Source: Candidatus Woesearchaeota archaeon
GTDB taxonomy: Archaea > Nanobdellota > Nanobdellia > Pacearchaeales > GW2011-AR1
Reading direction: 5' to 3'
Length of the DNA: 64,000 nucleotides
NCBI GenBank assembly: GCA_964573625.1
Contig: CAZNJU010000001.1
Span: forward strand, 256,661 to 320,660
The notes below the pieces were generated by a model that saw only the letters and a list, made by a program, of their open reading frames with translations, did no database searches and was not told the DNA's origin. Within the stretch, counting starts at the first letter, position 1. Each line of letters starts with the position of its first letter. The position numbers were made by a program, and so were the translations under genes. Below are positions 22,501-45,198 of this stretch, piece after piece.

Positions 22501-22985
22501 AACGAAAAAGCGGCTTCCGTTCCCCCGGCAGAACGAATCGGTCCCGAGAAGTAAGGTGCGAAGTAATCTTTTCCATCCATAGTTTTCTTAAGTTTAAGTT
22601 GAACAAAACCTTCAATAGGTGATGAAACCACTCCAAGAGTGAGATAAGCAATAGCTATACGTATTCCTGCCTCAATAGCTTCGAGATGACTTGCAAATTT
22701 ACAGTAAGTTTCCTTTGCAACTTCTTCCGCGACACGTAAAGCAACCGCAGGGTCAAGACTTCCGTATTGCTTCTCTAAATCTAGGATTCTTTTAACAAGT
22801 CGCGGATCAGCTATCTGAGGATATACTGCAGAAATAAGTCCTACTGCTCTTTCAGCAAGAGAAGTCGCCTGTGGAACTTCAATAGAAGAAACTGGATCTA
22901 TTCCTCTCTGTCTTGCCTGTTCAGCTAGAGCGTAACAACTTTTTACATTTTCGTTAAGAGATTCAAAATATTGGTTGATGTTCAT
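19545..22985 (-). CDS. polC: DNA polymerase II (PolD) large subunit DP2
   Basis: 1146 aa. The N-terminus aligns with archaeal DP2 (…RQRGIDPVSSIEVPQATSLAERA) and there are several Cys4 clusters (CTTCN…CDQC, CPQCD). No intein is apparent. Confidence 0.85.
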   Translation of the reverse strand: MNINQYFESLNENVKSCYALAEQARQRGIDPVSSIEVPQATSLAERAVGLISAVYPQIADPRLVKRILDLEKQYGSLDPAVALRVAEEVAKETYCKFASHLEAIEAGIRIAIAYLTLGVVSSPIEGFVQLKLKKTMDGKDYFAPYFSGPIRSAGGTEAAFSLVIIDHLREIFGYARYDPTQEEVKRGIHECYEYHERINNLQYLPSEQEIEELMKYLPVQLTGDPSEDREVYNYKDLPRIETNYIRSGFALVMGEGIAQKAPKILARVIKLKEKGFLLSDWGWLEGFVAMQKKIKENKAVGAGASATYIKDLVAGRPVFAHPSYSGAFRLRYGRARNTGYSTLAVHPATMVLSDNFIAVGTQLKIEKPTKGCTIAVCDSIDGPIIKLLDGSVHYVSTSDQAKQFAPELAEIIYLGDILVPYGDYRNRNHLLDKPGYVEQYWLEQLIKAGGTSELVPSLDNSIELSKKYSIALHPSYTFYWSQIDRDDFMALIDWISRGTYTSRFVLPFTKVDRERFARGKRVLELIGCPHEVSLENVIISEVSARALLFNLGITTYDSLEQSFEKLISQIPAEVDVLSIINALSSIPIKDKAGTFIGARMGRPEKAKLRKLTGSPHVLFPVGTEGGRLRSVQAAVEVGTVRSDFPLYHCTTCNVQKIYPVCDQCHETCKKKLYCPQCDRLYDSVCIEHNKGLPFSKQRVDIKTFFEKAKQLTGVRIEEIPAAVKGVRGTSSADHSCEHLGKGLLRAKYNLHVNKDGTIRYDMTEMPITHFKPKEVGTSVETLLKMGYEKDVNGKPLENDNQVLEIFPHDIILPACPESPDERADTVFLNITKFVDDELDRLYNLPRFFNLAKKEDLVGQLLGCIAPHNCAAVVGRIIGFSKVQALLASPYIHAAMRRDCDGDEAAVMLLMDLLINFSRKFLPSHRGGTQDAPLVLNTRMRAGEVDDMIFDLDVSKTVPLALYEAAELEQSPMTLKMEQIRGRIGGEHEFDNVNYFYEVSNINGGPLCSSYKTLPTMQDKVNSQMRLCSKIRAVDLTDVARLTIERHFMRDIRGNLRKFSMQAFRCVECNESFRRVPLSGKCSACGGKLIFTISEGSIIKYLASALNLARTYNVSPYLLECLEITEKDIQGIFGKEKEKQEALKRWF

Positions 22986-24526
22986 TGTGTAAAATCAAGA
23001 ACTTTAAGTTCGCGAGTCTTGACGTTGAACAAAGGAACTTTACAGGGATCAGGCACATTTCCAACCTTTTCTTCGAACTCTGTTTGAGCTTGCCAGCAAC
23101 TTCCCGTTATAATAATGGTCCCATTATAATTTTCGATATCTAGTCTGTGTACCTCTCCTGTGCATAAAACATCAGGTACTTCAGAAATAACAAGAGGATC
23201 ATGTTGAGCATTAGGAACATATACAATACTGGGACTAACTCCGTGTGTTGGAGCAAGATGTCTACGCTTAAGCATGTGTTTTACAGCTCGAGCCGGGCAG
23301 CGATGTGCTTTAGCAGCGCGTAGTTCATCAATTTCATTAATAAATGCATGAATGCTTGCTCCGTGATACATGAGTACTTTGAATTCTTTATCGCCTTCAG
23401 TAAGTTTAATCATTGAAGGATTCGAAACAAGAAAAAGATTAGGGAAAGCATAGAGCGCCTCTCCGTAAAAAGAATCAATCATTGGTTGAGGTTCAGCAAC
23501 ACGAACGGAATCGTGTTGTCCAGGACACATAAACATGGTTATATGTGGAGGCACCTGTTTAATATATGAAGCAAGCTTCGCGTATTGTTCTTTCAAACTC
23601 TTAAGGTTGAGCAGTCTTTCTTGTCCAGGAAAAACACCCACTCCATCTACATTATCTCCTACAAAAAAAATGTAACGTATAGACTTGGCAAGTTCATTTC
23701 CGCTATTGAGCCAATCAAGGAAGCGTTGAAATTCTGTTCCCAAATGCTTTTGGCTACCAACGTGTACATCTGAAACAAAGGCGATAGAATAATCTTCATC
23801 GAATCTTACTTTTTCCTTAAACGAATCAGGAAAAACAATATCGTGTACAAAAACAATTTCTCTGTTTCCAGAACCCTTTACAAGAACCACATCATCTAAT
23901 TGTAATTCACTTGCTTTTGAAAAACAGTCTGCATTTTGTTTGATAAGGGCCTTAACGCTCCCTGTTAAATCCTCAAAAGTAATTATTATATTTTTGTTGG
24001 GAGTTGTTCTTTTATCTGTAACAATTCCAATAAAGGAAAATCGTTGCCTATCTCCCGCAATTTTATTTAAGGATACTAAATTTTGTAAATCCCCTCGTTG
24101 CATAAGAATGCGTTGTAATTGTTGATAACGAGATCTAAAGTGTCCTACAAAATCAGCAATTTCTATCTTTTTATGGTTCTTGGTGTCAGTATAATATATT
24201 TGAAAGGGTAAATTTTCCTTCTTATCTTGACTGATCGGTGCAACAGAAGTTGATTTTTGAATTTCAACAGTAATTCCCATTTTGATAAAAACCGTTTCAA
24301 CTTGTTGCTTCATTTCTCCAGGCAAGCTTTTAACAACGTTTAGAACATATTCTGCATTCTTTGTCAAACTAGATGAAGTAATCATCTTCTGTCCCGAGAC
24401 TTTTTCCAAATTGTTTAAGAGATTCTTCGCAATCTCTGCGTCTGAAAAAGAGGTAAGTAAATCAAACAGATCTTTCTCTAAGAATAATCCTCTCTGTCTA
24501 ATAAATGCAATCGTGTCTTGATTCAT
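22982..24526 (-). CDS. polB: DNA polymerase II (PolD) small subunit DP1 (calcineurin-like phosphoesterase)
   Basis: Mre11-like metallophosphatase motifs (DVHVGS, GDNVDGVG, GQHD) and an N-terminal OB domain. Its stop overlaps the start of DP2. Confidence 0.85.
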   Translation of the reverse strand: MNQDTIAFIRQRGLFLEKDLFDLLTSFSDAEIAKNLLNNLEKVSGQKMITSSSLTKNAEYVLNVVKSLPGEMKQQVETVFIKMGITVEIQKSTSVAPISQDKKENLPFQIYYTDTKNHKKIEIADFVGHFRSRYQQLQRILMQRGDLQNLVSLNKIAGDRQRFSFIGIVTDKRTTPNKNIIITFEDLTGSVKALIKQNADCFSKASELQLDDVVLVKGSGNREIVFVHDIVFPDSFKEKVRFDEDYSIAFVSDVHVGSQKHLGTEFQRFLDWLNSGNELAKSIRYIFFVGDNVDGVGVFPGQERLLNLKSLKEQYAKLASYIKQVPPHITMFMCPGQHDSVRVAEPQPMIDSFYGEALYAFPNLFLVSNPSMIKLTEGDKEFKVLMYHGASIHAFINEIDELRAAKAHRCPARAVKHMLKRRHLAPTHGVSPSIVYVPNAQHDPLVISEVPDVLCTGEVHRLDIENYNGTIIITGSCWQAQTEFEEKVGNVPDPCKVPLFNVKTRELKVLDFTQ

Positions 24527-25728
24527 AGGTCTAAAGAAGTCCTCAAAATCTCCTTTGATTTTGCCATAAGAGGGGTTGGAATCATGAGTTTGATTTCTCT
24601 TGTTCTACCCTGCCTTCCTTTACTTACTACTTGCGCATTAATTATTCCTAACATATCGAATTCTGCCAATATATCTGAAACGCGCCGCTGTGTTAATACT
24701 TCATTTCGTGTACGTTCACAAACCTCTTGATATTTATTATAAATATCTCCTGTGTATAGTCTGTTTTCTCCTGCTGATTCGGTAAGTTGAATAATTGAAA
24801 AGAGTACGAGTTGAAACTGCTTAGGTTCATTCTCAATAATATCCAACATTTTATCACGCTCTATTTTTTTATTAGCCTCATCTATATGTTTCAATCCTAC
24901 TACTGCGCTATTTTCCCTATCGGCAAGCTCTCCAGCAACTCGTAACAAGTCAAGCGCCCTACGAGCATCTCCATGTTCACGAGCAGCAAACGCAGCGCAT
25001 TTAGATATAACTCCTTCTTCAAGAACACCCTCTGTAAATGCCTGTAAAGCTCGTTCCTTCAGTATATCTTGTAACTGTAAAGCATTATAGGGTGGAAAAA
25101 CAAGCTCTTCTTCTCCTAATGAACTGCGAACCCTAGGATCTAGTTCATCCATAAAAGTAAGACTATTACTTATACCTACTATACTAATTTGAGCATTCTT
25201 TAGTTCGGAATTGAGACGTGTTAAGGTATAAAGAAAACTGTCTGATATTTTTTTAACAGCTTGATCTATTTCGTCAAGTACTATAAGAACAATCTGCTTT
25301 CTATTATCAATAAGTTCTACAAATTTATTATAAACACTATCTGTAGGAAGTCCTGTCGCGGGAACGCTTCCTCCTAAATTATGAATAAGTTCTGCTAAAA
25401 TACGATATTCCGTGTCTGCTACTTTCTTTAACTTACAATTTACGTAAACTACTTTTAAAGATTGGCCACCGCTGTCTTTGACCCTCTTAGTGAGTTCGTT
25501 ACTTACGTACTGTACAGATAAAGTCTTACCTGTGCCTGTTTTACCATAAACGAATAAATTACTTACCCGTTCTGTTCTAAGTGCTGGAGCAAGAATAGAA
25601 GCTACTAATTCAATTTGATCATCTCTATGTGGAATCGTTTCAGGGGTGTAATTTATTTGTAAAACACTCTTATTTTTGAACAAACTCTTGCCCGCAACAG
25701 AATCAAATATTTTTCCAAGTTCTGGCAT
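24523..25728 (-). CDS. cdc6: Orc1/Cdc6 replication initiator
   Basis: AAA+ Walker A YGKTGTGKT, Walker B VLDEID and a C-terminal winged-helix domain. It is the first gene of the cdc6-polD operon, directly beside the AT-rich region. Confidence 0.85.
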   Translation of the reverse strand: MPELGKIFDSVAGKSLFKNKSVLQINYTPETIPHRDDQIELVASILAPALRTERVSNLFVYGKTGTGKTLSVQYVSNELTKRVKDSGGQSLKVVYVNCKLKKVADTEYRILAELIHNLGGSVPATGLPTDSVYNKFVELIDNRKQIVLIVLDEIDQAVKKISDSFLYTLTRLNSELKNAQISIVGISNSLTFMDELDPRVRSSLGEEELVFPPYNALQLQDILKERALQAFTEGVLEEGVISKCAAFAAREHGDARRALDLLRVAGELADRENSAVVGLKHIDEANKKIERDKMLDIIENEPKQFQLVLFSIIQLTESAGENRLYTGDIYNKYQEVCERTRNEVLTQRRVSDILAEFDMLGIINAQVVSKGRQGRTREIKLMIPTPLMAKSKEILRTSLDL

Positions 25729-26088
25729 GATACACCTCTTTCTGAAAGAGTATCCATTAGATTATAAACTTATTGTCACTGAAACCTCTATTTCCTATGG
25801 AAATAGCTCTAATTTCATACTTTATAAAAAAGGAGACTGACACCAACGTTTCCACTGGAAAATAATAAAAATAAAAATAAAAATATATCTATTATATACT
25901 ATATTATATATATTATAATATATAAATATTTAAAAGTAAAAAATAGAAAAAAAGAAAAGTAAATTTGTTTTTAAATCTTAGTATATATTCCATACGAAAT
26001 CATGGGGTGAGGGTGTTGTATATGAATAATCGTATAGCTATTAACAATTATACAAAACTTTAAATACCTCCTCCGCTGTTTTTCTAGA
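25729..26088. other. putative chromosomal replication origin (oriC): ORB-like dyads + AT-rich DUE + G-string ORB
   Basis: The dyads TTTCCtatGGAAA (25791-25805) and TTTCCACTGGAAA (25849-25862) match the Pyrococcus/Sulfolobus mini-ORB core TTCCAGTGGAAA. They are followed by about 120 bp of almost pure A/T (25860-25985). After that comes TTCCAtacGAAAtcatGGGGTGAGGGTG (25989-26016), a degenerate dyad plus a G-string as in full ORB elements. The region is adjacent to cdc6. Confidence 0.6.
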
Positions 26089-26349
26089 ATGGCATTAGAA
26101 AAGAGACCACTTAAGCATGTTCTTGGTAAACTCGTAGTTACTAAAGAAGGTAAGCGTTTAGGTCTTGTAAAAGACGTTACATTTGAAACAAGAACAGGAG
26201 AACTGCTTCAATTACTCTTAAAAGATGCAACGATATATACTAAAAACCTGAATTTAGAGGTTTCTCAGGATAAAGACACAGTAGTTCCTTATAATTCTAT
26301 TATTGCAATAGGCGATTTCGTGGTTGTTTCTGAAGAAGATCTTACATAA
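26089..26349 (+). CDS. PRC-barrel domain protein
   Basis: Reads LGKLVVTKEGKRLGLVKDVTFETRTGELLQLLL and is 86 aa long. Confidence 0.5.
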   Translation: MALEKRPLKHVLGKLVVTKEGKRLGLVKDVTFETRTGELLQLLLKDATIYTKNLNLEVSQDKDTVVPYNSIIAIGDFVVVSEEDLT

Positions 26350-26356
26350 TAATACT

Positions 26357-26779
26357 ATGAAAATAATTGGATTTAATTACACTAAAATTAGTGCTGAAAA
26401 GGCTCATAGAGTTGTGAATGCAACAGTTAACACCAATATCGAATTTTTGAATGTTGAAAAAGAATCTATGAATCTCTTAAAAGACGCAGAGCCCTTAAAA
26501 ATAACTTTCAAATACAACTTAACCTACGAAGGAAAAGAAAAAAAGCCAGAAAAACAAGGTGAAATTATGTTCGAAGGATATATTATTATAGCCGCAACAA
26601 AAGACGAAGTTAAAAATATAAATAAGGCATGGAAAAATAAAGAATTTCCAATTAGTTTGAAAATTCCACTTTTTAATATTATATTAAAGAAATGTACTCC
26701 AAAAGCAATCTACTTACAAGACGAAATAAGCCTTCCGTCGCATGTTCCAGTCCCTCGTTTATCTCCTAAACAGGAATAA
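26357..26779 (+). CDS. hypothetical protein
   Basis: The start is trimmed to the Met of MKIIGFNYTKIS to avoid overlap with the upstream gene. There are no recognisable motifs. Confidence 0.3.
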   Translation: MKIIGFNYTKISAEKAHRVVNATVNTNIEFLNVEKESMNLLKDAEPLKITFKYNLTYEGKEKKPEKQGEIMFEGYIIIAATKDEVKNINKAWKNKEFPISLKIPLFNIILKKCTPKAIYLQDEISLPSHVPVPRLSPKQE

Positions 26780-26781
26780 TT

Positions 26782-27477
26782 CTAAATTCGTTCAAGAGGC
26801 CCAAAATCTAAGGCCTGCCCATCATCGCTAACAACTATTGCTCTAAACTTTCCAAAAGCAAAATTCCACGGATTACGCACAGGTTGTTCTCTAACATCAC
26901 TTCCCTCACTACCAGGAAAAAAACTTGGAACAATAATAATTTTTTTCTTTTTGTACGTCCCCTGAAGAAAACACTTATATTTTTCTATTTTGGAACCATC
27001 TATGAATGTAATGGCAGGGTGAAAATGACCCAATACCCATGTTTTTACGGAATCATCATATAATGCTGGAAAGTCTCGGTCGCCGTGCATAAATATGTAA
27101 TCTTCCCAAGTATAATAATCTACAAGAGTAACTGAAAGTTCTCGCACAAGTGGCTCAAGTAATGCATCGTGGTTTCCTTTAACAATCACCACTTTCTTAG
27201 CTCGTTTACCACATATTGTAAGCAGTTTGGTTATCTCTTGTCGTTCTTCCCATAAAATTGTTCCAATAGCATGCTTCAAATCCCCTAAAATAACGATTGT
27301 ATCAATAAAATCAACACGTTTCAATACATCTTCCAATTCAGTTACAATATTTTCATAAATTTTAGTAGGAATCATAAACCCAGACTTCCAGAGCGCCTCA
27401 TTATATCCTAAGTGAAGATCCCCAATTACCAATACTTTCTTATCTAACAATAACGTCTTTCCAATAAATTCAATCAT
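26782..27477 (-). CDS. metallophosphoesterase (MPE), calcineurin-like
   Basis: Motifs LVIGDLHLG, GDL, GNHD and GHFH. Its start overlaps the stop of the Lhr-like helicase gene. Confidence 0.7.
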   Translation of the reverse strand: MIEFIGKTLLLDKKVLVIGDLHLGYNEALWKSGFMIPTKIYENIVTELEDVLKRVDFIDTIVILGDLKHAIGTILWEERQEITKLLTICGKRAKKVVIVKGNHDALLEPLVRELSVTLVDYYTWEDYIFMHGDRDFPALYDDSVKTWVLGHFHPAITFIDGSKIEKYKCFLQGTYKKKKIIIVPSFFPGSEGSDVREQPVRNPWNFAFGKFRAIVVSDDGQALDFGPLERI

Positions 27478-30098
27478 TTTTTATCAATTACTTTTAACTG
27501 CAATTGATGCATTCTCTTGAGGAAATTAGCACGATCTTCCATACTAATAAGATCAGTGTGACTCTGTAATAATAAGGTTAATCCAAAGGGAGAAACCATT
27601 GGAACACGCATAGTTTTTACAGATACTCTCTTTCGTTCAATCCACTCAAGAACAACTTTTGCTTGAGGAACATCCATAAGATCTTCAAATACTTCTCTTC
27701 GAGCCTCTTGCAAAATAGGAAATTCATCGCTCAGTTGCTTAACGCTTGTTAGCAGAAAACTCGAATGAACCTGCTGTTTTCCAACCGATTTCGATCTACC
27801 TTTGTAATTTCTCAAAATCATAAGGCTTCGAGAGGCACAATGTCTAAATCGTCTCTTCAAAACGTCCGTCTTTTCAATAGCTTCTTTCACAATAAGTTCA
27901 ACATTCTTAGACGTCACATATTCAATTATCTTTTTTTCATCGAGTTTTTCAGCACTAATAAAGAAACCATTATCATTAATTCCTAACTCAACGTCACGAT
28001 GTCTAAGACGTGCAGCGGCAAAGGCATATGCACGTGACAGAACATCATTAACACGTCTTCCATACATAGAATGAAAGAAAAGATATTCTTTATCAGAAAC
28101 AAATTTTTCAACTAACAGTGTTTGAGAATCCGGAATCATGGAAAACTGGTGCTGTTCAAGCATGTACTGATAAATCGTATGAGCTATTTCCGGAGAACAT
28201 TCAAGGTATTCTTCCAAGAAAGCAAGACTCTCCTTTCGATTATCTATTCTTTCACGTACAAGTCCGCGCAATCTCCCAATGTCACATGCTAACTCAAAAG
28301 TAAGAGGTAATTGTTCTGAAAACCAGCTTGGAACAGTTGGCTGTCGCGAAACATCTGCTTGCACGTAAGCTTTCATTCCACGTGAAAACAAGTATTGATA
28401 CTTGGCTCCACCCAATACAAATACGTCCCCACGTTTCAAACGCTCAAGAAACGCCTCATCTATTGAACCAACCCCCTCACCTCTTCGACCACCCTTACCA
28501 ATGACGACTTCCACATACCCTTCTTCAGGAATAGTTCCAATATTAGTCATATAAATAATGCGTGCAAGTTTTCCTTTCTTTCCAATGTCTCCTGTCTTAG
28601 CGTCATACCATATCTTAGCATATACATGTCTATGTTCAAGGGCATAATCTCCTGCCAAATAGCTAACAATCGAGAAAAACGCCTCTCGACTTAAGTTTCG
28701 ATAGCAGTAACTCTTACGAATTACTTTAAGCATAGCATCAGCATTCCATACACGTTGAATAGCCATCCCAAATATATGTTGTGAAAGCACATCAAGCGCA
28801 TTTTGAGGTATAGTAATCGTGTCAATCTTCTTATCTCGCATGTTTTTCATAAGAGCAGCACATTCAACCAGATCGTCACGATCAAGAACGATAAACCGGC
28901 CTTTCGGATTCTCATGAAGTTTATGTCCTGCACGCCCAATACGTTGTAAAGCTCGCGCAACACCCTTAGGCGAACGCAACAACACAACAAGGTCGATACT
29001 CCCAATGTCTATACCTAATTCTAAGCTAGTCGAACTAACAACTACCTTCAATTCACCCTTTCTCAATCGTTCTTCTATCTCAAATCTTCGAGCTTTATTC
29101 ATTGAGCTATGATGTGCCCCTATCAAGCCCGTGTATTTTCCAGGGAAATGCAAGTCAAGGTAGTGAATTATCTTTTCAGTAGCATTTCGAGTGTTAGTAA
29201 ATATAAGCGTAGTCTTATGTTCCTGAATTAAATCGTGTAAAATATGATACAGTCTTCTCTGTTGTTCGGGGGCATCGGTCTCCAGCAGATCACGCGAGGG
29301 GCTAATAAGTCCAACATCTATTTTTTTTAATAATTTAACTTCTGCAATAAGACACTCACGTTCACTACCCACCAAAAATCGAGCAATTTCATCCAAAGGA
29401 GCAATGGTAGCGCTCAATCCAACCCGCACAGGATCAATTACACTAATCTCTGCAAGTCTTTCAAGCGTCAGTGTCAAGTGTACGCCTCGCTTATTAGCCA
29501 TCGCATGAATCTCATCTACAATAATAAACTCAAGAGCTTGCAAATTTTTACCAAATATAGGAGCACTCAATACAATTGCAAGACTCTCAGGGGTCGTAAT
29601 AAAAATATGAGGTATCTTGCGTGCTTGTTTCGCTCGTTCACCAGGAGTCGTATCTCCTGTTCTCAATCCAACCCGAATCTCTTGCAAGGTAATCTTCTTC
29701 TTCTCAGCTAATTCGGTTATTTCCTTGAGTGGTTGAACCAAATTAACAGCGATATCATTGCTCAAAGCCTTAAGCGGAGAGATGTAAACGGCATAAATCT
29801 TATTTTCAAGCTCATTTTTACTCGCGAGCTCTACCAAATAGTTGATAATAGCCAAAAAAGCAGTCAGCGTCTTAGTTCCTCCGGTAGGTGCACTCACAAG
29901 AATATTTTTTCTATCGTGAATGTACTTAACAGCGTGCAATTGTGTAGGCGAGAACGCTTTGAATTTACCAAAGAACCACTCTCGCACCAACGGATGCAGT
30001 AGCTCTTTAAGCGCCCTTTCATCGGCAGGTTCAACGTAGGATACGAGGTTCTGTTGCATGGTATGAAAAGCTCCGTGAAGAATAACAATCCGAGCCAA
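27474..30098 (-). CDS. lhr: Lhr-family (Lhr-core) ATP-dependent DEAH-box helicase
   Basis: Motif I SAPTGGTKTLTAFL, motif II DEIHAMANKRG and motif VI-like RIGRAGH. A C-terminal domain of about 400 aa as in Lhr-core brings the total to 874 aa. Confidence 0.7.
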   Translation of the reverse strand: MARIVILHGAFHTMQQNLVSYVEPADERALKELLHPLVREWFFGKFKAFSPTQLHAVKYIHDRKNILVSAPTGGTKTLTAFLAIINYLVELASKNELENKIYAVYISPLKALSNDIAVNLVQPLKEITELAEKKKITLQEIRVGLRTGDTTPGERAKQARKIPHIFITTPESLAIVLSAPIFGKNLQALEFIIVDEIHAMANKRGVHLTLTLERLAEISVIDPVRVGLSATIAPLDEIARFLVGSERECLIAEVKLLKKIDVGLISPSRDLLETDAPEQQRRLYHILHDLIQEHKTTLIFTNTRNATEKIIHYLDLHFPGKYTGLIGAHHSSMNKARRFEIEERLRKGELKVVVSSTSLELGIDIGSIDLVVLLRSPKGVARALQRIGRAGHKLHENPKGRFIVLDRDDLVECAALMKNMRDKKIDTITIPQNALDVLSQHIFGMAIQRVWNADAMLKVIRKSYCYRNLSREAFFSIVSYLAGDYALEHRHVYAKIWYDAKTGDIGKKGKLARIIYMTNIGTIPEEGYVEVVIGKGGRRGEGVGSIDEAFLERLKRGDVFVLGGAKYQYLFSRGMKAYVQADVSRQPTVPSWFSEQLPLTFELACDIGRLRGLVRERIDNRKESLAFLEEYLECSPEIAHTIYQYMLEQHQFSMIPDSQTLLVEKFVSDKEYLFFHSMYGRRVNDVLSRAYAFAAARLRHRDVELGINDNGFFISAEKLDEKKIIEYVTSKNVELIVKEAIEKTDVLKRRFRHCASRSLMILRNYKGRSKSVGKQQVHSSFLLTSVKQLSDEFPILQEARREVFEDLMDVPQAKVVLEWIERKRVSVKTMRVPMVSPFGLTLLLQSHTDLISMEDRANFLKRMHQLQLKVIDKK

Positions 30099-30955: not shown

Positions 30956-31258
30956 ATGCCTTCAGTATCGTCAAAAACAAAGGACCGCATCTCAGAACAA
31001 ATATTAGCTTACTTATTCTCCCAATCGCCCGAGCCTCGCTACACAGTTCATATTGCATCATCAATCGCCCGAGACGAAGAGTTCACAAAAGCACTTCTTC
31101 TTGACTTAGAAAAGCGCAAGCTAGTAGTAAAAGTAACAAAGAGTTCTCAAGGCTTCGACTACCTTCGTCGTCAACGCTGGCGTCTCTCAGATGCAGCCTT
31201 CTCAGCATATAATCAGATGTCTAAGCAGAGATCTACGACTTTCATCGATGAAGAGTAA
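30956..31258 (+). CDS. hypothetical small protein, possible winged-helix DNA binding
   Basis: 100 aa with a basic C-terminal half and a predicted helix-turn-helix. Confidence 0.3.
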   Translation: MPSVSSKTKDRISEQILAYLFSQSPEPRYTVHIASSIARDEEFTKALLLDLEKRKLVVKVTKSSQGFDYLRRQRWRLSDAAFSAYNQMSKQRSTTFIDEE

Positions 31259-31264
31259 TCAATT

Positions 31265-31801
31265 TTAACGACTAGACCAGTCATAAACAGAACTAATAAT
31301 TGCTTGTCCTTCCAAAAAAGCATGTGCATGCCACATAAGAAAAGGTTCTATTTCTTTCGGTGCTTCCTTTAGATAGGGTGCTTTCGACTCTGCTTCCCAC
31401 ACATTATCGAATAGTCTAGTAAGGGGATGACCTTTGTTCTTATAGATTTGGCGTACCATATCCGTGCCATTGAAACTTTTCCGGGTTTTTAACACCAGAT
31501 CAATATCCTCTTGTCCAATAATGGGTAAACAAGATTCTTCTCTTAAATCTAATTCATAAAAAGCAGCTAGTAAAACAGAACTTCCACCATAATAAGACAT
31601 TGCAGCACATAATCGAGAAAGACCCTCCTCATGACCTTCTAATTTTTTGCGTTGTAGTACGTTCGACGAAACTTGGGATATATGAGCATTATAATCTTCC
31701 TGACAACGTACACGAAAAAGTATACTCTTTGGGAGTTGAGAGACCCCAGCAATACTAATTAACTGATCTACGGCCTTAGAGGATATTTCAAGTTGACTCA
31801 T
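31265..31801 (-). CDS. hypothetical protein
   Basis: 178 aa with no recognisable motif. Confidence 0.3.
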   Translation of the reverse strand: MSQLEISSKAVDQLISIAGVSQLPKSILFRVRCQEDYNAHISQVSSNVLQRKKLEGHEEGLSRLCAAMSYYGGSSVLLAAFYELDLREESCLPIIGQEDIDLVLKTRKSFNGTDMVRQIYKNKGHPLTRLFDNVWEAESKAPYLKEAPKEIEPFLMWHAHAFLEGQAIISSVYDWSSR

Positions 31802-31873
31802 AAAATAAGCAAGTCAAATCCTATTTAAATCTAACCACAACAATCCTTATAATATCCAAAAATATCAAAAGAT

Positions 31874-32503
31874 ATGGATCCTATAAAAGAAGCATTTCTA
31901 AAAGCAAAGCAAGATATACAGTTTTTGAATGAAAAAATAGACAAATTAACCCAAGAACTAGAAGAATTAAAGCGAACTCTAAATACATCATATCAGTCAG
32001 TTCAGCCAACCAACCAACAGATGATTCCAACACATCAACACCCTCTAGAACACTTAAAAAGCTCAAAAACAAGCTTCTCCACTGGAAATGAAGGGGTTCC
32101 AACCAACCAACCAACAATCCAACCAACCAACCAACGCACTGGAAATGAAGGGGTTCCCGATAAGATCAGCCATCTTGAACGAGTTTCAGAGATCCTAGGA
32201 TCTCTCGATGCATTAAAGAAAGAAGTTCGCATTAAATTTAAGAAGCTTACCCAGCAAGAAATGGCTATATACGGAGCAATTTACCAGCTTCAAGAGCAAG
32301 GAAATATCGTCGATTACACCTTATTAGCCTCAAAACTCAAATTATCAGAGATTTCAATACGTGACTATATTCGAAAAATAGCTACCAAGGGCATCCCTCT
32401 CAACAAAGAAAAAGTCGATAATAAAAAAATTAGGCTCACAATTCCAGAGGATTTGCGCCGAGTAGCAACCCTAGAAACGATTTTAGCTCTCCGCGAGCTA
32501 TAA
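31874..32503 (+). CDS. coiled-coil + C-terminal winged-HTH protein with internal 60-nt direct repeat
   Basis: N-terminal heptads (LNEKIDKLTQELEELKRTL). The tandem repeat actggaaatgaaggggttcc(aa/cg)...ccaaccaaccaac encodes ...TGNEGVPTNQPTIQPTNQRTGNEGVP. The C-terminal wHTH reads QEMAIYGAIYQLQEQGNIVDYTLLASKLKLSEISIRDYIRKI. Confidence 0.45.
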   Translation: MDPIKEAFLKAKQDIQFLNEKIDKLTQELEELKRTLNTSYQSVQPTNQQMIPTHQHPLEHLKSSKTSFSTGNEGVPTNQPTIQPTNQRTGNEGVPDKISHLERVSEILGSLDALKKEVRIKFKKLTQQEMAIYGAIYQLQEQGNIVDYTLLASKLKLSEISIRDYIRKIATKGIPLNKEKVDNKKIRLTIPEDLRRVATLETILALREL

Positions 32504-32575
32504 ATATCACTCCTTTCGGTATACCGAATAAAATAGGGGCTTAGCTATACCTTTTCCTTTCAAACTGTTCTATCA

Positions 32576-32603
32576 AAATTCGTTTTAACGCGAACTTTTG
32601 ACA
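32576..32603. repeat. AAGTTCG-box repeat copy (inverted orientation)
   Basis: aaaattcgttttaacgcgaacttttgac; the reverse complement contains AAAGTTCGCGTTAAAACG. Confidence 0.4.
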
Positions 32604-32914
32604 CTCACTTTTTGATCACTCAGAATCATCGCTTATCAGCGTGGATGATCCCTCACTTTTTGCACAAAAAAGGGCCAACAGTACCCTCTTTTTGAATCAA
32701 AATCCAGTAAATATCACTCACTTTTCACTTCCTCCGCTATAGCTTGCTCATAATCCTCACTTTTCTCTTCTTTTTCCCCCTTTTTGAGGCGTTTTTCCTT
32801 GCCCTTAACTCTCACTTTTGCGTATTTTAGGAGTTTAATACGAACTTCTTCACTAATAAACACTCTCTTTTTCCCATTTCCCTCAGTTATCTCCTCAATC
32901 AAGCCCTCACTTTT
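32604..32914. repeat. six dispersed copies of CTCACTTTT
   Basis: Copies at 32604, 32652, 32717, 32756, 32811 and 32906. They span the intergenic region and the 3' end of the minus-strand wHTH gene. Confidence 0.45.
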
Positions 32915-33403
32915 CTGCTTTATAGCATTTATTTGTCCTCTAACCGTACTTCTCTCTTTTCCAAGTAGCCTGGCTAGATCCTCATAGCTCAACTTCAGGC
33001 CCTCTCCGGCATTCAATAGGGTAAAAATCAATAGTCTCTCATTAGCTGATAGTTGATTCAAAATAGCATATAAATTACCTGTTTGAACAGGTGTTTGAAC
33101 ATCTTCTTCAACATCTTCAACAGCTGTTTGTTTGTCTAAAACACCCGTTTTTTTAAACAGCTGTTTGTTTTTTGCCTCAAAATCAACTAAGCTTAAACCT
33201 TCACGGAGCGATTCAATCTCTTCACGAACCGTCGCTAAATCCAATTTTAGGCTGTTTATCTCATCAAACAGCTGTTTGTCATGAGTATCCAGGTGTTTAA
33301 TCCAGCTTCCAACTTTCTCAAGATCCTTTTTAACTCCAGAAAAACCATGTTTGGTTGCTTCCTCTAATTTCTTATCCTTGTTTCCGAAAATCCATCCAAA
33401 CAT
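32714..33403 (-). CDS. coiled-coil + winged-HTH protein (paralogous architecture to 31874..32503)
   Basis: The start is trimmed to MFGWIFGNKDKK, because the track's extension reads through the iteron array. It has the heptad segment LKLDLATVREEIESLREGL and the wHTH ERLLIFTLLNAGEGLKLSYEDLARLLGKERSTVRGQINAI. Confidence 0.45.
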   Translation of the reverse strand: MFGWIFGNKDKKLEEATKHGFSGVKKDLEKVGSWIKHLDTHDKQLFDEINSLKLDLATVREEIESLREGLSLVDFEAKNKQLFKKTGVLDKQTAVEDVEEDVQTPVQTGNLYAILNQLSANERLLIFTLLNAGEGLKLSYEDLARLLGKERSTVRGQINAIKQKSEGLIEEITEGNGKKRVFISEEVRIKLLKYAKVRVKGKEKRLKKGEKEEKSEDYEQAIAEEVKSE

Positions 33404-33720
33404 AAACACCTTAAAACCCCTGTATTTATAAACTTTACGCCTTTTTACACATTCCAACACATCCTCCAACACACCAAAAAAACACCCCTGTTTAAACAGG
33501 CAAACAGCCCATAAACACCCCTTTTTCAAAAGCAAACAGGCAAAAAACACCTTTAAACAGGGTCAAACACCCCTAGAATAATCGACGATAAAACAGCCCA
33601 ACAGCTGTTTAAACACTCTTGCCTCAATTATCAGTGAGGCGCGAAGCGCCGAACGCGCCCGACAACACAAAAAACACCTGTTTTTAGGGCAATTCACAAG
33701 ATATTTAAACTTCAGTACCC
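33404..33720. repeat. iteron-like array: interleaved AAACAG(G/C) and AAACACC(CCT) short direct repeats
   Basis: There are at least seven AAACAGG/AAACAGC units and at least six AAACACC units in about 300 bp. One copy forms the palindrome AAACAGCTGTTTAAAC. The region is non-coding and lies directly upstream of the wHTH gene. Confidence 0.55.
33622..33661. repeat. 40-bp GC-rich hairpin repeat, copy 1
   Basis: cctcaattatcagtGAGGCGCGAAGCGCCGAACGCGCCCg. The GGCGC-GAA-GCGCC stem-loop is embedded in AT-rich DNA. Confidence 0.55.
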
Positions 33721-33730
33721 TTAACAAAAC

Positions 33731-33892
33731 ATGGTATTAGTTTCAGTAGCCATTTCAGCCGTATTGGCCATCATTTTAGGCATTTTAATCCTCGTATTCC
33801 CAAGGCTATTACGTTGGGCCGTAGGATTTTATCTGCTCATTTTCGGAGTCCTGCAACTTCTAGCACAGGCGTACCCTTCTTTCTCCCCATAA
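33731..33892 (+). CDS. small membrane protein (53 aa), DUF3096-like; not in ORF track (<60 aa)
   Basis: MVLVSVAISAVLAIILGILILVFPRLLRWAVGFYLLIFGVLQLLAQAYPSFSP is an ATG..TAA frame of 54 codons. It has two TM helices with the ILGILILVFP...GxYLLIxGVLQLL pattern. Confidence 0.4.
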   Translation: MVLVSVAISAVLAIILGILILVFPRLLRWAVGFYLLIFGVLQLLAQAYPSFSP

Positions 33893-33952
33893 AAATTCCC
33901 CAACACAGGCCCCTTTAGAAAGGATTAAAAACCAATCAAAACACCCAAAACT

Positions 33953-34339
33953 ATGGAAACAGCAAAAAGAATTAATGAAAAACCATCTCCTTTAGTAATC
34001 GCTGCCGCAGCAGTTGGCGCACTAGGCCTCGTGACCTACGGATTCATCACCCAAAAGCCTGCCCCAGAAAGACCTTCTTTGACAGGCAAGGTTACCTATG
34101 AAAGTCCCTTAAGTTTCAGCGGAGGCTTCGCCTATAGTTGGAGAATTGAGACGCCCGAAGGAGATTCACGTCTTATCGGAACATCAGCAGACGTATATTC
34201 TCCCAAGACCAACCAACCAAAACCATTTGGCCTGGGCGATGAAGTAAAAATCGACCTCAGAGGACTCGATCAAACGTACGAGTACGGGCCAAGAATAACG
34301 GATCTAAAATATGCTTCTATAGTTTCAAAAAACAAGTAA
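33953..34339 (+). CDS. hypothetical exported/membrane-anchored protein
   Basis: An N-terminal hydrophobic segment (LVIAAAAVGALGLVTYGFI) and then a beta-rich domain. It is flanked by the two GC-rich hairpin repeats. Confidence 0.4.
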   Translation: METAKRINEKPSPLVIAAAAVGALGLVTYGFITQKPAPERPSLTGKVTYESPLSFSGGFAYSWRIETPEGDSRLIGTSADVYSPKTNQPKPFGLGDEVKIDLRGLDQTYEYGPRITDLKYASIVSKNK

Positions 34340-34347
34340 TAAAACTT

Positions 34348-34396
34348 CTCAGCTTCGCTTAAATCTTTCAGCACCCATTAAAGTTCGTGTTAAAGC
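34348..34396. repeat. AAGTTCG-box long repeat, copy A
   Basis: ctcagcttcgcttaaatctttcagcacccattaAAGTTCGTGTTAAAgc is about 80% identical to 35417-35466. Confidence 0.5.
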
Positions 34397-34418
34397 CCGC
34401 GAACCCTAAGGAAATATG

Positions 34419-34458
34419 CCTCAATTAAGAGTGAGGCGCGAAGCGCCGAACGCGCCCG
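34419..34458. repeat. 40-bp GC-rich hairpin repeat, copy 2
   Basis: cctcaattaagagtGAGGCGCGAAGCGCCGAACGCGCCCg matches copy 1 at 37 of 40 positions. Confidence 0.55.
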
Positions 34459-34502
34459 GCAACGAGTAGAAAAGGTTAAAAACTATAAATCGATCAAAAA
34501 TC

Positions 34503-34886
34503 ATGCACTCACAAACTAAAACAGGCACAGTAACCCTAGAAGGCAAGACCTTCGAAGTAGAGTTGAATAGGCATCATATCGGTAGAACCTATGGAGAGTG
34601 TGAAAAAGATTGTCCAGCAGGATGGCATATGCCTACCTATCAGCTTTTGCAAGAAATAAGAAATTCAGCAGATAGAGACAAATTTAATTTACTTGAAACC
34701 TCAGAATATGTTCAACAGCCAGATGTTCTCTCAAAAGAAAGAGGGTTAGTTGCAGGGTTTGTTGCGAGTTCGGACGGGGCTATTCTTAGTTGCGCCGCGG
34801 ATCCTAAGACCGCCGATTCGGTACTTGGGGTGCGCTATGTGCGTAAACTTTCTGGAGACCCCATTCCTCGGCACGAGAATTGGTAA
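34503..34886 (+). CDS. hypothetical protein
   Basis: 127 aa with noticeably higher GC than the flanking genes. Confidence 0.35.
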   Translation: MHSQTKTGTVTLEGKTFEVELNRHHIGRTYGECEKDCPAGWHMPTYQLLQEIRNSADRDKFNLLETSEYVQQPDVLSKERGLVAGFVASSDGAILSCAADPKTADSVLGVRYVRKLSGDPIPRHENW

Positions 34887-34950
34887 AATAAGAGTTCGTA
34901 TAAGGTATATTAAGCGAAGTTTTAGAGGGTTTTTAGACAATAATGCGAAC

Positions 34951-35352
34951 TTATTTCTTCAGAATAGGCGGGATTGGTAAGTTTTTCAAGGCTTTTTCTC
35001 CGAATAGGCCTATAAGAAGTCCCCTAAGTCCCCTCTTTGAATCTCGATAATTTGAGTATGCTATTTGATAAGCAATATTTAGTTCCGTTCCTAGTTGAGT
35101 AAACTCCTGTAGTCTCTTAAGCATTTGCTTAGTGCCTCCATAGGTCAGGATGTGGTGGAGAAACTCTTCATGAAATCTCTTAATTTGAAAGTATTCCAAG
35201 TGTAATTTTTTAATTTCTTCAGCTTTTTCTTTCCAGAATTTTAGCCATTTTTCCACATCAAAATCCACCTCCTGATTTCTAAGGCTTAGAAACGGATAAT
35301 ACCTTCCTCGAAAAATTACAGATCCATCACCTAACTCTTCATATTCCTTCAT
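34951..35352 (-). CDS. hypothetical protein
   Basis: 133 aa, basic and helical. Confidence 0.35.
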   Translation of the reverse strand: MKEYEELGDGSVIFRGRYYPFLSLRNQEVDFDVEKWLKFWKEKAEEIKKLHLEYFQIKRFHEEFLHHILTYGGTKQMLKRLQEFTQLGTELNIAYQIAYSNYRDSKRGLRGLLIGLFGEKALKNLPIPPILKK

Positions 35353-35416
35353 CCGTTTATGGGGCGTACATGATTTTTAATCATTTCTATAGTCTGCAAT
35401 ACATGCTAAAACTTTC

Positions 35417-35466
35417 TGCTCTCGCTTAAACCTTTCAGCATACAGTATAAGTTCGTTTTAATAAGA
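35417..35466. repeat. AAGTTCG-box long repeat, copy B (plus short copy at 35517-35540)
   Basis: ctgctctcgcttaaacctttcagcatacagtaTAAGTTCGTTTTAATaag. A second short box, aataAAGTTCGTTTTAATtaaagc, lies 50 bp downstream. Confidence 0.5.
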
Positions 35467-35542
35467 AAAACGGTATGCTAGAACTTGTAAGCGTTAATGA
35501 TAATTTTAAGCAGATAATAAAGTTCGTTTTAATTAAAGCAGG

Positions 35543-44391: not shown

Positions 44392-45198
44392 ATGGAGCAT
44401 GTTGAACTATTCAAAACCGAGCTAAAACTACGCGGCTTCTCTCCATTAACTATACGTAACTATTCTTTTTTTGTCGAAAAATTTCTTAAATTCACCAATA
44501 AAGACGCTTCACAAGTCGACGAGAACGATGCACGCGCATATCTAGCTTCTCTTTTCGAATCAAAATCTAAGAACACCATTATGCTCGCGGCAGCATCTCT
44601 CAAATTCTTTTATGCTGAAGTCTTAAAGAAGCCAACAGTAGCGATAAAAGCACCCAAAAAAGACAAACAGCTTCCAGAAGTATTGACAAAAGAGGAAGTT
44701 CGCAAGATGATTGATCTCTCTGAGACTCTCAAGTCACGCCTTATAATTTCATTGCTCTATTCATCAGGTCTCCGGGTTTCCGAACTCGTTCATCTCAAAC
44801 CAGAAAATCTTAACATCAATGAAAGTATGGGTTGGGTTCGTAGAGGAAAAGGCGCAAAAGACAGACGTTTCATTCTATCGGAAACACTTTCAAAAGATCT
44901 TGATGCGTACGTCAAAAGAAATCCGGGGCCATACGTCTTCTCAAAGAAAGAAGATCCCCTCACAACTCGAAATATTCAGAAAATCGTGAAAAAAATAAAA
45001 GAAAAAGCAGGAATAAATAAGAAAGTAACTCCTCACACACTAAGGCATAGCTTCGCAACCCATCTTCTCGAAGCAGGTACGGATATTCGACTTATTCAAA
45101 CGCTTCTTGGCCACGCGTCTCTAAATACTACTCAATTGTACACACATGTTTCAGCTGATCAGTTGAGAAAAGTTCAGAACCCTTTGGACGGATTGTAA
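44392..45198 (+). CDS. xerA: tyrosine recombinase, XerA/XerCD-like
   Basis: An N-terminal SAM-like domain and a C-terminal catalytic region with R...HxxR...Y (TPHTLRHSFATHLLEAGTDIRLIQTLLGHASLNTTQLYTHV). Confidence 0.7.
   Translation: MEHVELFKTELKLRGFSPLTIRNYSFFVEKFLKFTNKDASQVDENDARAYLASLFESKSKNTIMLAAASLKFFYAEVLKKPTVAIKAPKKDKQLPEVLTKEEVRKMIDLSETLKSRLIISLLYSSGLRVSELVHLKPENLNINESMGWVRRGKGAKDRRFILSETLSKDLDAYVKRNPGPYVFSKKEDPLTTRNIQKIVKKIKEKAGINKKVTPHTLRHSFATHLLEAGTDIRLIQTLLGHASLNTTQLYTHVSADQLRKVQNPLDGL

What the first reader, a model, noticed from the sequence alone, without database searches (positions are those of the whole stretch)
33622..34458. Two copies of a 40-bp GC-rich hairpin element flanking one small gene
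cctcaatta(tcag/agag)tGAGGCGCGAAGCGCCGAACGCGCCCg occurs at 33622-33661 and 34419-34458 with 37 of 40 positions identical. It can fold as GGCGC-GAA-GCGCC (a GNA triloop minihairpin) or as GGCGCG...CGCGCC. It is a sharp GC spike in AT-rich intergenic DNA. The two copies bracket the exported-protein gene 33953-34339. Possible roles are transcription terminators or attenuators, an RNA stability element, or a MITE-like mobile-element terminus.
Basis: seen in the sequence. Interest (0 to 1): 0.6.

Follow-up and report, generated by a model that had tools for sequence, protein, structure and literature searches.

The report
Conserved hairpin element before archaeal promoters
The two GC-rich repeats are copies of a roughly 65-base element found almost letter for letter in dozens of tiny (DPANN) archaeal genomes; its hairpin is preserved by compensating mutations, it sits just before the promoter of a small gene, I found no description of it, and its function is inferred only.

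Summary
It belongs to a larger family. The 22-nt core is exact in 27 Pacearchaeota/Woesearchaeota/Nanoarchaeota MAGs. A covariance model finds 86 copies in 80 loci anchored on a conserved winged-helix gene, all on the strand opposite to that gene and on its 5' side.

At least six different fully paired stems occur. The alternative GGCGCG...CGCGCC pairing and the window's GCCTCA/TGAGGC hairpin do no better than shuffled controls.

The element is always co-oriented with the next gene. It lies 40-69 nt before that gene's ATG in half of the copies, directly upstream of a leaderless BRE/TATA, and often downstream of the previous gene's T-run. It punctuates a variable array of toxin-antitoxin and small membrane-protein genes.

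It is not a bacterial-type terminator, MITE, attC site, CRISPR, K-turn or any Rfam family.

Best guess (about 0.3): a protein-recognised sense-strand RNA hairpin that insulates each small promoter unit from incoming transcription. Rivals are a 5'-terminal hairpin of its own transcript and an ssDNA recombination site. It appears undescribed.

The parts
33600..33669 (+). Element E, copy 1 (full family model match). It lies in the divergent intergenic region between the wHTH gene (32714-33403, - strand) and the 53-aa gene.
   Evidence: CM R1 64.4 bits, E=7e-12; nhmmer 4.3e-16; repeat D5
33636..33652 (+). Copy 1 structured core: GA (33636-37), stem GGCGC (33638-42), loop GAA (33643-45), stem GCGCC (33646-50), GA (33651-52)
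   Evidence: Covariation across the family
33655..33664 (+). Copy 1 third segment GCGCC plus CGACA. It is conserved in sequence but shows no covarying partner, and it abuts the BRE position in most family members.
   Evidence: Alignment A2; long-range pairing not supported
34397..34466 (+). Element E, copy 2 (full family model match). It lies between the 128-aa gene and the 127-aa gene.
   Evidence: CM R1 68.7 bits, E=8e-13
34433..34449 (+). Copy 2 structured core GA-GGCGC-GAA-GCGCC-GA
   Evidence: Same as copy 1
33701..33733 (+). TATA-like box ATATTTAAAC (33701-33710) and the leaderless start ATG 33731 of the 53-aa membrane-protein gene downstream of copy 1
   Evidence: A homologous gene follows E in L016, and the family is present in 29 loci.
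34470..34505 (+). BRE/TATA-like AAAAGGTTAAAAAC (34470-34483) and ATG 34503 of the 127-aa gene. The promoter starts about 10 nt after copy 2.
   Evidence: family-wide distance peak; PWM peaks
34345..34394 (+). M1-M2 junction motif (CTTCTCAGCTTCGCTTAAATCTTTCAGCA ... AAAGTTCGTGTTAAA). It follows directly on the stop codon of the 128-aa gene and lies about 40 nt upstream of copy 2's hairpin.
   Evidence: M2 lies 38-65 nt upstream of the hairpin in most of the 35/108 copies that have it
33404..33620 (.). Iteron-like region upstream of copy 1: AAACACCCCT x3 at 33-nt spacing, CTGTTTAAACAG palindromes and a CGACGATAAAA box. It is conserved in the homologous loci.
32714..33403 (-). Conserved coiled-coil plus winged-helix gene ('HTH229'), divergent from the element array in every locus
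33731..34339 (+). The two ORFs between the copies: the 53-aa membrane protein (33731-33892) and the 128-aa N-terminally hydrophobic ORFan (33953-34339)
   Evidence: The 128-aa slot is empty in L040 and holds unrelated genes in L024.

Best explanation
E is a strand-specific cis element of about 65 nt. Its functional core is a small sense-strand hairpin: 4-5 G/C pairs capped by a GNA triloop and clamped at its base by tandem G.A/A.G pairs. It marks the upstream edge of independent, mostly leaderless promoter units for small accessory genes (toxin-antitoxin pairs and small membrane proteins) in Pacearchaeota/Woesearchaeota.

The most likely mode of action is at the RNA level. Any transcript that enters from upstream would fold this hairpin just before the next BRE/TATA. 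Such transcripts could be read-through past a leaky T-run, or spurious starts in the TATA-rich iteron region. A lineage-specific protein would recognise the hairpin; candidates are the always-adjacent coiled-coil/winged-helix proteins. The transcript would then be terminated or cut there. The conserved A-run on the left (a T-run on the other strand) would do the same for antisense transcripts. Each autoregulated small gene would thus be insulated from its neighbours.

Shown: family membership, strand, position, structure and purifying selection. Inferred: that the strand acting is RNA, that a protein binds it, and that the outcome is termination or insulation.
For: Structure:
- The hairpin is 99% paired in 98 distinct copies. 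Two pairs show double changes, and 0/500 shuffles reach any measure.
- On 86 model-aligned copies, 4 of 5 pairs show changes on both sides, in 26 cells; the covariation score is 0.227 against 0.043 for shuffles.
- At least six fully paired stems occur: GGCGC/GCGCC, GCGCC/GGCGC, GGCCC/GGGCC, GGGCC/GGCCC, GGTGC/GCACC and GGCC/GGCC. Loops are GAA, GCA, GTA or GGAA.

Strand:
- The loop keeps G and A only on the + strand.
- The GGTGC/GCGCC variant is U.G on the + strand but C.A on the - strand.
- The basal 5'GA/3'GA is replaced by AA or TA with GT or TT in 7 of 9 exceptions.

Link to the downstream transcription unit:
- E is co-oriented with the next gene in essentially all copies.
- The ATG lies 40-69 nt after the hairpin in 47/95 copies, with a peak at 50-59 nt.
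- Canonical BRE/TATA PWM hits are concentrated at +40..+50 (25/102 copies, against 5 scattered upstream). TATA-only PWM hits peak at +35..+55.

Not a 3'-UTR element of the upstream gene:
- 42/108 copies lie after a T>=5 run.
- Copies also occur in divergent intergenic regions: window copy 1, L002, L021, L024, L025, L018 and L027.

Selection:
- The 22-nt core is identical in 27 MAGs, while the neighbouring protein is only 57-74% identical.
- Non-essential positions differ between copies within one genome.

Context:
- The downstream genes include autoregulated TA modules (AbrB/VapB-PIN, MazF, RelE), for which read-through would be harmful.
Against: - No transcript data exist. Nothing shows that RNA crosses the element.
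- Archaeal termination is known to use oligo-T runs, not hairpins, and there is no T-run after the hairpin.
- No binding protein is identified. The neighbouring wHTH proteins look like DNA binders.
- The near-invariant sequence of the third segment (GCGCC) is unexplained.
- An ssDNA hairpin would give the same covariation.
- A weak TATA-like box ends 21-25 nt upstream of the hairpin in about 14% of copies (14 against 4.5 expected). In window copy 1 a TTTAAACA box sits 22 nt upstream. This fits the rival in which the hairpin is the 5' end of a transcript.
Confidence: 0.3

Rival explanations
1. E carries its own weak promoter, and the hairpin is the 5'-terminal structure of a transcript. That transcript is either a longer, leadered isoform of the downstream mRNA or a short sRNA. 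The A/T-rich box would act as the TATA box, the conserved T-G before the stem as the initiator, and the GA-clamped G/C hairpin would protect the 5' end or bind a regulator.
For: - An A/T-rich box lies at a fixed distance from the hairpin (alignment A2).
- TATA-PWM hits ending 21-25 nt upstream of the hairpin are enriched about 3-fold (14 against 4.5 expected).
- Window copy 1 has a canonical TTTAAACA 22 nt upstream.
- This model explains the co-orientation, the fixed distance to the ATG, the occurrence in divergent regions, the position after upstream T-runs, and the sense-strand covariation.
- In the 'class 2' copies, E is followed by a second covarying hairpin and 200-300 nt without an ORF.
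Against: - The BRE+TATA PWM finds almost nothing upstream of E (5/102), but finds a canonical leaderless promoter downstream.
- E-associated genes lack a Shine-Dalgarno sequence, so a leadered isoform would be poorly translated.
- The A-run has no TA-rich core in most copies.
- If the A-run is aligned as a TATA box, the predicted start falls inside the stem.
Confidence: 0.2
2. E is an ssDNA hairpin recombination or transposition site, working like integron attC sites or IS200/IS605/REP hairpins. It would be used to shuffle small gene cassettes in the array next to the wHTH gene. The sense strand folds when it is single-stranded, for example as lagging-strand template.
For: - Copies form direct-orientation arrays of 1-5 separated by one or two small genes.
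- Gene content varies between related genomes, and the same vapBC unit with its E sits at different array positions in L006 and L025.
- The array is rich in TA cassettes, as in chromosomal integrons.
- d(GCGAAGC)-type GNA minihairpins with sheared G.A pairs are exceptionally stable in DNA (my own knowledge).
- A 5' tetranucleotide (GTGA) precedes the hairpin, as GTAG does in REP elements.
Against: - There is no integrase or Y1/HUH gene in 880 kb of loci. The only tyrosine recombinase is a housekeeping XerA-like gene, 10 kb away in the window.
- The one clean indel examined (L024 against L040) is bounded by a stop codon and the M1 motif, not by E.
- Cassettes carry their own promoters.
- E also occurs singly beside housekeeping genes.
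- No copies occur in 2.9 M viral contigs.
- This model does not explain the tight register with the downstream BRE/TATA.
Confidence: 0.18
3. E is a selfish or neutral REP-like repeat that spreads by an unknown route and merely tolerates positions between terminators and promoters. It has no host function.
For: It is a multi-copy, intergenic, GC-rich palindrome in an AT-rich genome with a patchy distribution.
Against: - Copy number is very low (2 in 64 kb).
- Copies within one genome differ at loose positions, while the hairpin and its flanks are held constant across 27 MAGs. This indicates purifying selection rather than recent spread.
- Orientation and spacing relative to the next promoter are strict.
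Confidence: 0.08
4. E is a double-stranded operator or upstream activating site bound by a dimeric transcription factor, for example the adjacent wHTH protein, which controls the downstream promoter.
For: - E lies immediately upstream of BRE/TATA.
- It shows 86/86 association with the wHTH gene locus.
- The wHTH domain is Lrs14-like.
Against: - Compensatory changes keep the two arms complementary while changing their sequence, and canonical and variant stems coexist in one locus (L011, L048, L117). This is not expected for half-site recognition in duplex DNA.
- The conserved features are asymmetric: the GNA loop and the GA flanks.
- Spacing to the TATA box varies from 5 to 60 nt.
Confidence: 0.07
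5. E works on the opposite strand as a terminator for antisense or divergent transcripts from the downstream promoter: a GC hairpin followed about 20 nt later by the conserved T-run.
For: - The A-run (T7 on the - strand) is conserved at the left edge.
- In T-run-class copies, the T-run and A-run sit back to back.
- The scan reports a - strand terminator-like site at copy 2.
Against: - The window copies lack the T-run.
- The loop and wobble evidence favours the + strand.
- The count of terminator-like sites is no higher than in shuffles.
- The GA flanks become unpairable UC on the - strand.
Confidence: 0.05

Closest known systems
Bacterial REP/BIME elements (RAYT-associated repetitive extragenic palindromes)
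   Same: A short GC-rich hairpin-forming repeat, strictly intergenic. A conserved 5' tetranucleotide precedes the stem (GTGA here, GTAG in REP). It sits between transcription units and is proposed to act on RNA ends or read-through.
   Different: - Copy number is very low.
- Copies are always single and in direct orientation, never in inverted pairs.
- Orientation and register with the downstream promoter are strict.
- The sequence is conserved across many species rather than being species-specific.
- No RAYT gene was found.
- The host is archaeal.
Integron attC sites and gene-cassette arrays (including the archaeal integrons of Ghaly et al. 2022, PMC9668308)
   Same: Same-orientation repeats separate single small genes in a variable array rich in toxin-antitoxin modules. 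The structure is selected on one strand.
   Different: - There is no IntI, attI or Pc.
- There is no R''-L''/L'-R' architecture and no GTTRRRY core.
- The sequence is almost invariant, whereas attC sites conserve structure but not sequence.
- Cassettes have their own promoters.
- The observed indel junction is not in E.
IS200/IS605 subterminal hairpins and PATEs
   Same: Top-strand-specific small hairpins in direct orientation at both ends of a segment. Recognition depends on structure plus flanking nucleotides.
   Different: - There is no tnpA or tnpB gene.
- There is no defined left-end/right-end asymmetry or target tetranucleotide.
- The hairpin is tied to promoters.
Hairpins at mRNA ends or in nascent RNA that are read by proteins (lambda nut boxB with N, 5'-terminal stabiliser hairpins, histone mRNA stem-loop)
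   Same: A short stem with a G-initiated purine loop. Both structure and specific flanking bases are conserved, and the element acts in cis on the transcript that contains it.
   Different: E lies upstream of the mapped-by-consensus promoter, not inside a known transcript. No partner protein is known. There is no sequence similarity.
K-turn / U4 5' stem-loop (L7Ae/15.5K sites)
   Same: Tandem G.A/A.G pairs flank a short G/C helix closed by a small loop. There is a weak cmscan hit to U4 (17 bits, E=0.12).
   Different: No canonical C-stem can form: the sequence 5' of the would-be bulge is A/U-rich and not complementary to the 3' segment. E is not a member.

Membership tests
Bacterial-type intrinsic terminator | GC-rich hairpin immediately followed by a U/T tract on the transcribed strand | tested here: not met
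   The consensus after the stem is GAACGCGCCCGACA, with no T-run. The scan finds no + strand terminator-like site at either copy.
Archaeal oligo-T terminator of the upstream gene | T>=5 run at the 3' end of a co-directional gene, with the element forming part of it | tested here: not met
   E contains no T-run on the + strand. 42/108 copies lie 25-110 nt downstream of a separate T-run. Several copies have no upstream co-directional gene.
MITE | Terminal inverted repeats and target-site duplication | tested here: not met
   No inverted-repeat partner was found in the window. The flanks of the two copies are unrelated and show no duplicated target.
REP/BIME | High copy number, frequent inverted pairs, GTAG 5' tetranucleotide | tested here: not met
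   There are 2 copies in 64 kb and at most 6 exact copies per MAG. All copies are in direct orientation. The tetranucleotide is GTGA.
REP/BIME | Associated RAYT (Y1 HUH) gene | tested here: inconclusive
Whole genomes were not searched.
Integron attC | Adjacent intI with attI and Pc | tested here: not met
   Neighbouring genes are wHTH/coiled-coil ORFs with no integrase domain. The only tyrosine recombinase is XerA-like, at 44392-45198.
Integron attC | R''-L''...L'-R' imperfect palindrome with RYYYAAC/GTTRRRY core sites | tested here: not met
   The consensus has a 5-bp perfect stem with a 3-nt loop and no core sites.
Integron attC | Cassette gain or loss junctions inside the site | tested here: inconclusive
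   The L024 against L040 indel is bounded by a stop codon and M1, not by E. Only a few genome pairs were examined.
CRISPR array | Regularly spaced repeats with 25-80 nt spacers | tested here: not met
   Spacing is 530-2100 nt and contains genes.
K-turn (L7Ae site) | Tandem G.A pairs next to a 3-nt bulge and a Watson-Crick C-stem | tested here: not met
   The GA/GA pairs are present. No complementary C-stem partner exists for the 3' segment in alignment A2.
Hammerhead or other small ribozymes; any Rfam family | Match to the curated covariance model | tested here: not met
   No family hit reaches the gathering score at the element. In permissive E-value mode there is nothing relevant. The CUGANGA core is absent.
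tRNA fragment / integrase att site | Identity to part of a tRNA gene, with an integrase-bearing element between the repeats | tested here: not met
   There is no tRNA at or near the copies. Only two small ORFs lie between them.
Protein-coding sequence | Conserved reading frame with third-position variation | tested here: not met
   ORFs through the element are short and frame-inconsistent. Substitutions are paired stem changes, not synonymous ones.

The most novel reading that the evidence does not exclude
E, together with the M1/M2 junction motifs, delimits a previously unrecognised gene-cassette array of DPANN archaea. In this reading, small promoter-bearing cassettes (toxin-antitoxin, small membrane proteins) are exchanged at single-stranded hairpin sites next to a conserved pair of coiled-coil/winged-helix genes and an iteron-like region. 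Functionally this would be an integron-like platform with unrelated parts and no IntI.
Probability: 0.15. Interest if true: 0.85.

Novelty: new variant of a known kind. Interest (0 to 1): 0.6.

Why it matters
DPANN archaea are uncultured or barely cultured, and almost nothing is known about how they organise transcription.

This element is short, easy to recognise and under strong constraint, being better conserved than the neighbouring proteins. Its structure is defined by covariation, and it marks the start of independent small-gene units in many genomes.

If it is an insulator or end-defining signal, it would be a hairpin-based transcription boundary in Archaea, where only oligo-T and factor-dependent termination are established. 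If it is a recombination site, it would define a new cassette system.

Either way it gives three practical things: a handle for annotating promoters and small genes in these genomes, a bait for finding its binding protein, and a testable marker for existing groundwater metatranscriptomes.

Tried and rejected
- **Long-range fold GGCGCG...CGCGCC.** It is 92% paired but no better than shuffles, and the third segment stays GCGCC when arm 1 changes.
- **Window-specific hairpin GCCTCA-N8-TGAGGC.** This is what RNAfold prefers. It is not general: the middle pair is unpaired in 51/98 copies and there is no excess covariation.
- **Pairing of M1 (GCTTCGC) with the hairpin (GCGAAGC).** It is predicted in the window, but M1 does not change in L118, where the stem is GGCCC/GGGCC.
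- **K-turn, hammerhead, H/ACA, C/D box, BHB.** The required partner strands or boxes are absent, and Rfam finds nothing.
- **tRNA half or att site, CRISPR, coding peptide.** All rejected.
- **Viral or plasmid origin.** The core has no hits in viral contigs, and the wHTH gene has no relatives there.
- **Own canonical promoter upstream of E.** The BRE+TATA PWM finds 5/102 scattered hits. Only a weak TATA-like enrichment remains.
- **Y1 transposase or integrase next to arrays.** None found.
- **Literature.** No paper contains the core sequence. Keyword searches on DPANN/Pacearchaeota repeats and on archaeal integrons turned up nothing describing it.
Full report
**Observation.** The core GAGGCGCGAAGCGCCGAACGCGCCC occurs exactly twice in the window, at 33636-33660 and 34433-34457 on the + strand, with none expected by chance. 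The repeat is 47 nt long (33620-33666 / 34417-34463; 44/47 identical). The core is 80% G+C in a 39% G+C window, and the sequence outside the repeat is unrelated. Two ORFs lie between the copies, of 53 aa and 128 aa. A covariance model of the family, run without filters on both strands, finds no third copy in the 64 kb.

**Whose genome.** The window carries an intron-containing tRNA, a 5S rRNA, Orc1/Cdc6, both PolD subunits and an Lhr helicase. It is 39% G+C. The related sequences come from Pacearchaeota, Woesearchaeota and Nanoarchaeota MAGs (lineage). It is therefore a DPANN archaeal chromosome. The element lies about 8 kb from a probable oriC upstream of cdc6.

**A family, not a local duplication.**
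- The 22-nt core GGCGCGAAGCGCCGAACGCGCC is found exactly in 39 stretches of the species-representative genome set. Of these, 34 come from 27 DPANN MAGs, several with 2-4 same-strand copies spaced 530-1220 nt apart. The other five are high-GC bacterial chance matches that lack the flanks. Viral contigs have none.
- The family consensus is aAAAAAATAGCCnCAATAnnnnGTGA-GGCGC-GAA-GCGCC-GAAC-GCGCC-CGACAt.
- Three window genes to the left of copy 1 are conserved beside the element in at least 15 of these loci, at 57-74% amino-acid identity. They are a 100-aa ORF, a 209-aa coiled-coil/wHTH ORF and the 229-aa coiled-coil/HTH ORF at 32714-33403. Their domains are HTH_38/Lrs14-like.
- I used an alignment of the 229-aa protein as an anchor (A1). 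The metagenome collection gave 431 relatives, of which the best 80 loci were kept.
- In those 80 loci the covariance model finds 86 copies of the element. All 86 are on the strand opposite to the anchor gene and on its 5' side. By nhmmer, 46 of 52 loci with at least 3 kb of flank had a copy. The model then recovered divergent copies in the remaining ones.

**Structure.**
- On 98 distinct copies (A2), the GGCGC/GCGCC stem is 99% paired and shows double-sided changes. No shuffle out of 500 reaches any of the five measures, and all slid controls collapse.
- On the 86 model-aligned copies, 4 of 5 pairs carry changes on both sides, in 26 cells. The covariation score is 0.227, against 0.043 for shuffles (this alignment is fitted to the model).
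- Stems observed: GGCGC/GCGCC (canonical), GCGCC/GGCGC, GGCCC/GGGCC, GGGCC/GGCCC, GGTGC/GCACC, GGCC/GGCC and GCGC/GCGC. Loops observed: GAA, GCA, GTA and GGAA.
- Canonical and variant stems coexist in single loci (L011, L048, L117).
- The flanking GA...GA is kept even when the stem is rewritten. Where the 3' flank is GT or TT, the 5' flank is AA or TA in 7 of 9 cases. This fits basal G.A/A.G pairs being swapped for A-U pairs.
- The conserved G and A of the loop, and the U.G-compatible GGTGC/GCGCC variant, point to the + (sense) strand.
Neither is the GCCTCA/TGAGGC hairpin that happens to be perfect in the window. Thermodynamic folding alone is unimpressive (z = -1.4 to -2.4) and picks the wrong hairpin.

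**Position.**
- The element is intergenic and co-oriented with the gene to its right.
- The next ATG-ORF starts 40-69 nt after the stem in 47 of 95 distinct copies, with a peak at 50-59 nt.
- Aligned on the ATG, a TATA-like box sits 21-22 nt upstream, as it does for other leaderless genes and tRNAs of this window. The element's CGACAT tail runs into the purine-rich BRE.
- A BRE+TATA matrix trained on the anchor gene's promoters scores 25 of 102 copies at +40..+50, and only five scattered sites upstream. A TATA-only matrix peaks at +35..+55.
- On the upstream side the context varies. A T>=5 run is present in 42/108 copies, so the element lies beyond the previous terminator. The M1-M2 motif is present in 35/108. 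In the first copy next to the wHTH gene, the upstream context is an iteron-like region.
- Window copy 1 is of this last type and has no upstream co-directional gene. Copy 2 follows M1-M2 directly after the stop codon of the 128-aa gene.

**What the array contains.** The genes on the element's side of the wHTH gene are almost all co-oriented with it. They fall into small membrane-protein families, including the window's 53-aa protein, and toxin-antitoxin modules (AbrB/VapB-PIN, MazF, RelE, others). A few are HNH proteins. Content varies between related genomes:
- The slot holding the window's 128-aa gene is empty in L040 and holds two unrelated genes in L024.
- The boundaries of that indel are the stop codon of the 53-aa gene and M1, not E.
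- A vapBC unit with its E sits first in the array in L025 and further along in L006.
- No transposase or integrase lies next to the arrays. The XerA-like gene is housekeeping.

**Interpretation.** The shown facts are:
- a strongly constrained, sense-strand hairpin with defined flanks;
- a physical tie to the next promoter;
- independence from the upstream context.

Compensatory change argues against recognition as duplex DNA. The position argues against a 3'-UTR element of the upstream gene and against a hairpin-plus-U terminator.

I therefore favour, at about 0.3, an RNA-level boundary. Transcripts entering from upstream would fold the hairpin and be ended or cut, through a lineage-specific protein, just before the next BRE/TATA. 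This would be particularly useful for autoregulated TA promoters.

The main rivals are:
- the hairpin is the 5' end of a transcript from a weak promoter inside E (about 0.2; there is a 3-fold enrichment of weak TATA-like boxes 21-25 nt upstream, and a canonical TTTAAACA at that place in window copy 1);
- it is an ssDNA recombination site (about 0.18).

A duplex operator, an antisense terminator and a functionless repeat are less likely. None of these can be settled without RNA-end mapping or biochemistry.

**Comparison with known systems.** E resembles REP elements, attC sites and IS200/IS605 hairpins in being a strand-specific intergenic hairpin repeat. It fails their defining features: copy number and inverted pairing, core sites and integrase, and transposase. 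It matches no Rfam family and fails the K-turn and hammerhead architectures. The core sequence occurs in no paper of the library, and keyword searches found no description. I rate it a new variant of a known kind (intergenic hairpin repeat), of moderate-to-high interest.

Noticed in passing
window 19545-30098 and 25729-26323: Orc1/Cdc6, PolD DP1 and DP2, and Lhr helicase form a cluster. The cdc6-upstream region is extremely AT-rich, with the inverted boxes ATTTCCTATGGAA / TTCCATACGAAAT flanking an (AT)n stretch. This is probably oriC, about 8 kb from the element.
   Followed up: partly
window 34345-34394, 35400-35461, 35522; related loci: A second conserved junction motif, M1-M2 (..CAGCTTCGCTTAAATCTTTCAGCA..AAGTTCGTTTAA), directly follows the stop codons of unrelated array genes. 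GTTCGnnTTAA occurs 7 times in the window, all within 31977-35522. A closely related pattern (AGTTCG[CT]-N0-2-TTAA) occurs 244 times in 879 kb of related loci, against about 2.5 expected. The reverse strand of M1 reads a decaying 'MLKDLSERRKI..' start. The one clean cassette indel seen is bounded by M1.
   Followed up: partly
window 33404-33620: An iteron-like region lies between the wHTH gene and copy 1. It has AAACACCCCT three times at 33-nt spacing, CTGTTTAAACAG-type palindromes and a CGACGATAAAA box. It is conserved in all homologous loci and may be the binding region of the adjacent wHTH proteins, or an origin-like site.
   Followed up: partly
L009, L010, L014, L017, L019, L020, L026, L027, L035, L039 (about 45 nt before to about 90 nt after the first base of the 22-nt core): A composite 'class 2' version occurs beside housekeeping genes. 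It consists of E, a CATTGATGnTTTT spacer, and a second hairpin CG(G/T)TTAAg-N4-aTTA(G/A)(A/C)CG with compensatory changes. It is followed by 200-300 nt with small UUCG-type hairpins and no ORF. It has no Rfam match and may be an unknown ncRNA.
   Followed up: partly
window 30956-33403: A conserved trio of ORFs (100 aa; 209 aa coiled coil plus PT/NQ-rich linker plus wHTH; 229 aa coiled coil plus HTH) has no curated family. The latter two share an EVRIK motif whose DNA matches the M2 motif.
   Followed up: partly
window 57218-57314: A 97-nt tRNA, presumably intron-containing, is found by Rfam but missed by ARAGORN. It sits in a cluster with tRNA-Leu, tRNA-Arg and 5S rRNA.
   Followed up: no
window 50081-52503: Two tandem paralogous genes of 403 and 404 aa on the - strand (direct repeats D1/D2, 70-79% identical).
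   Followed up: no
L012 about 6976, L030 about 7306, L044 about 4498 and 6178: A recurrent TATA-preceded sequence, CACCTCTTTTCCCAGGAGAGGACGTTTGATC, forms a hairpin in several related loci. It may be another small RNA.
   Followed up: no
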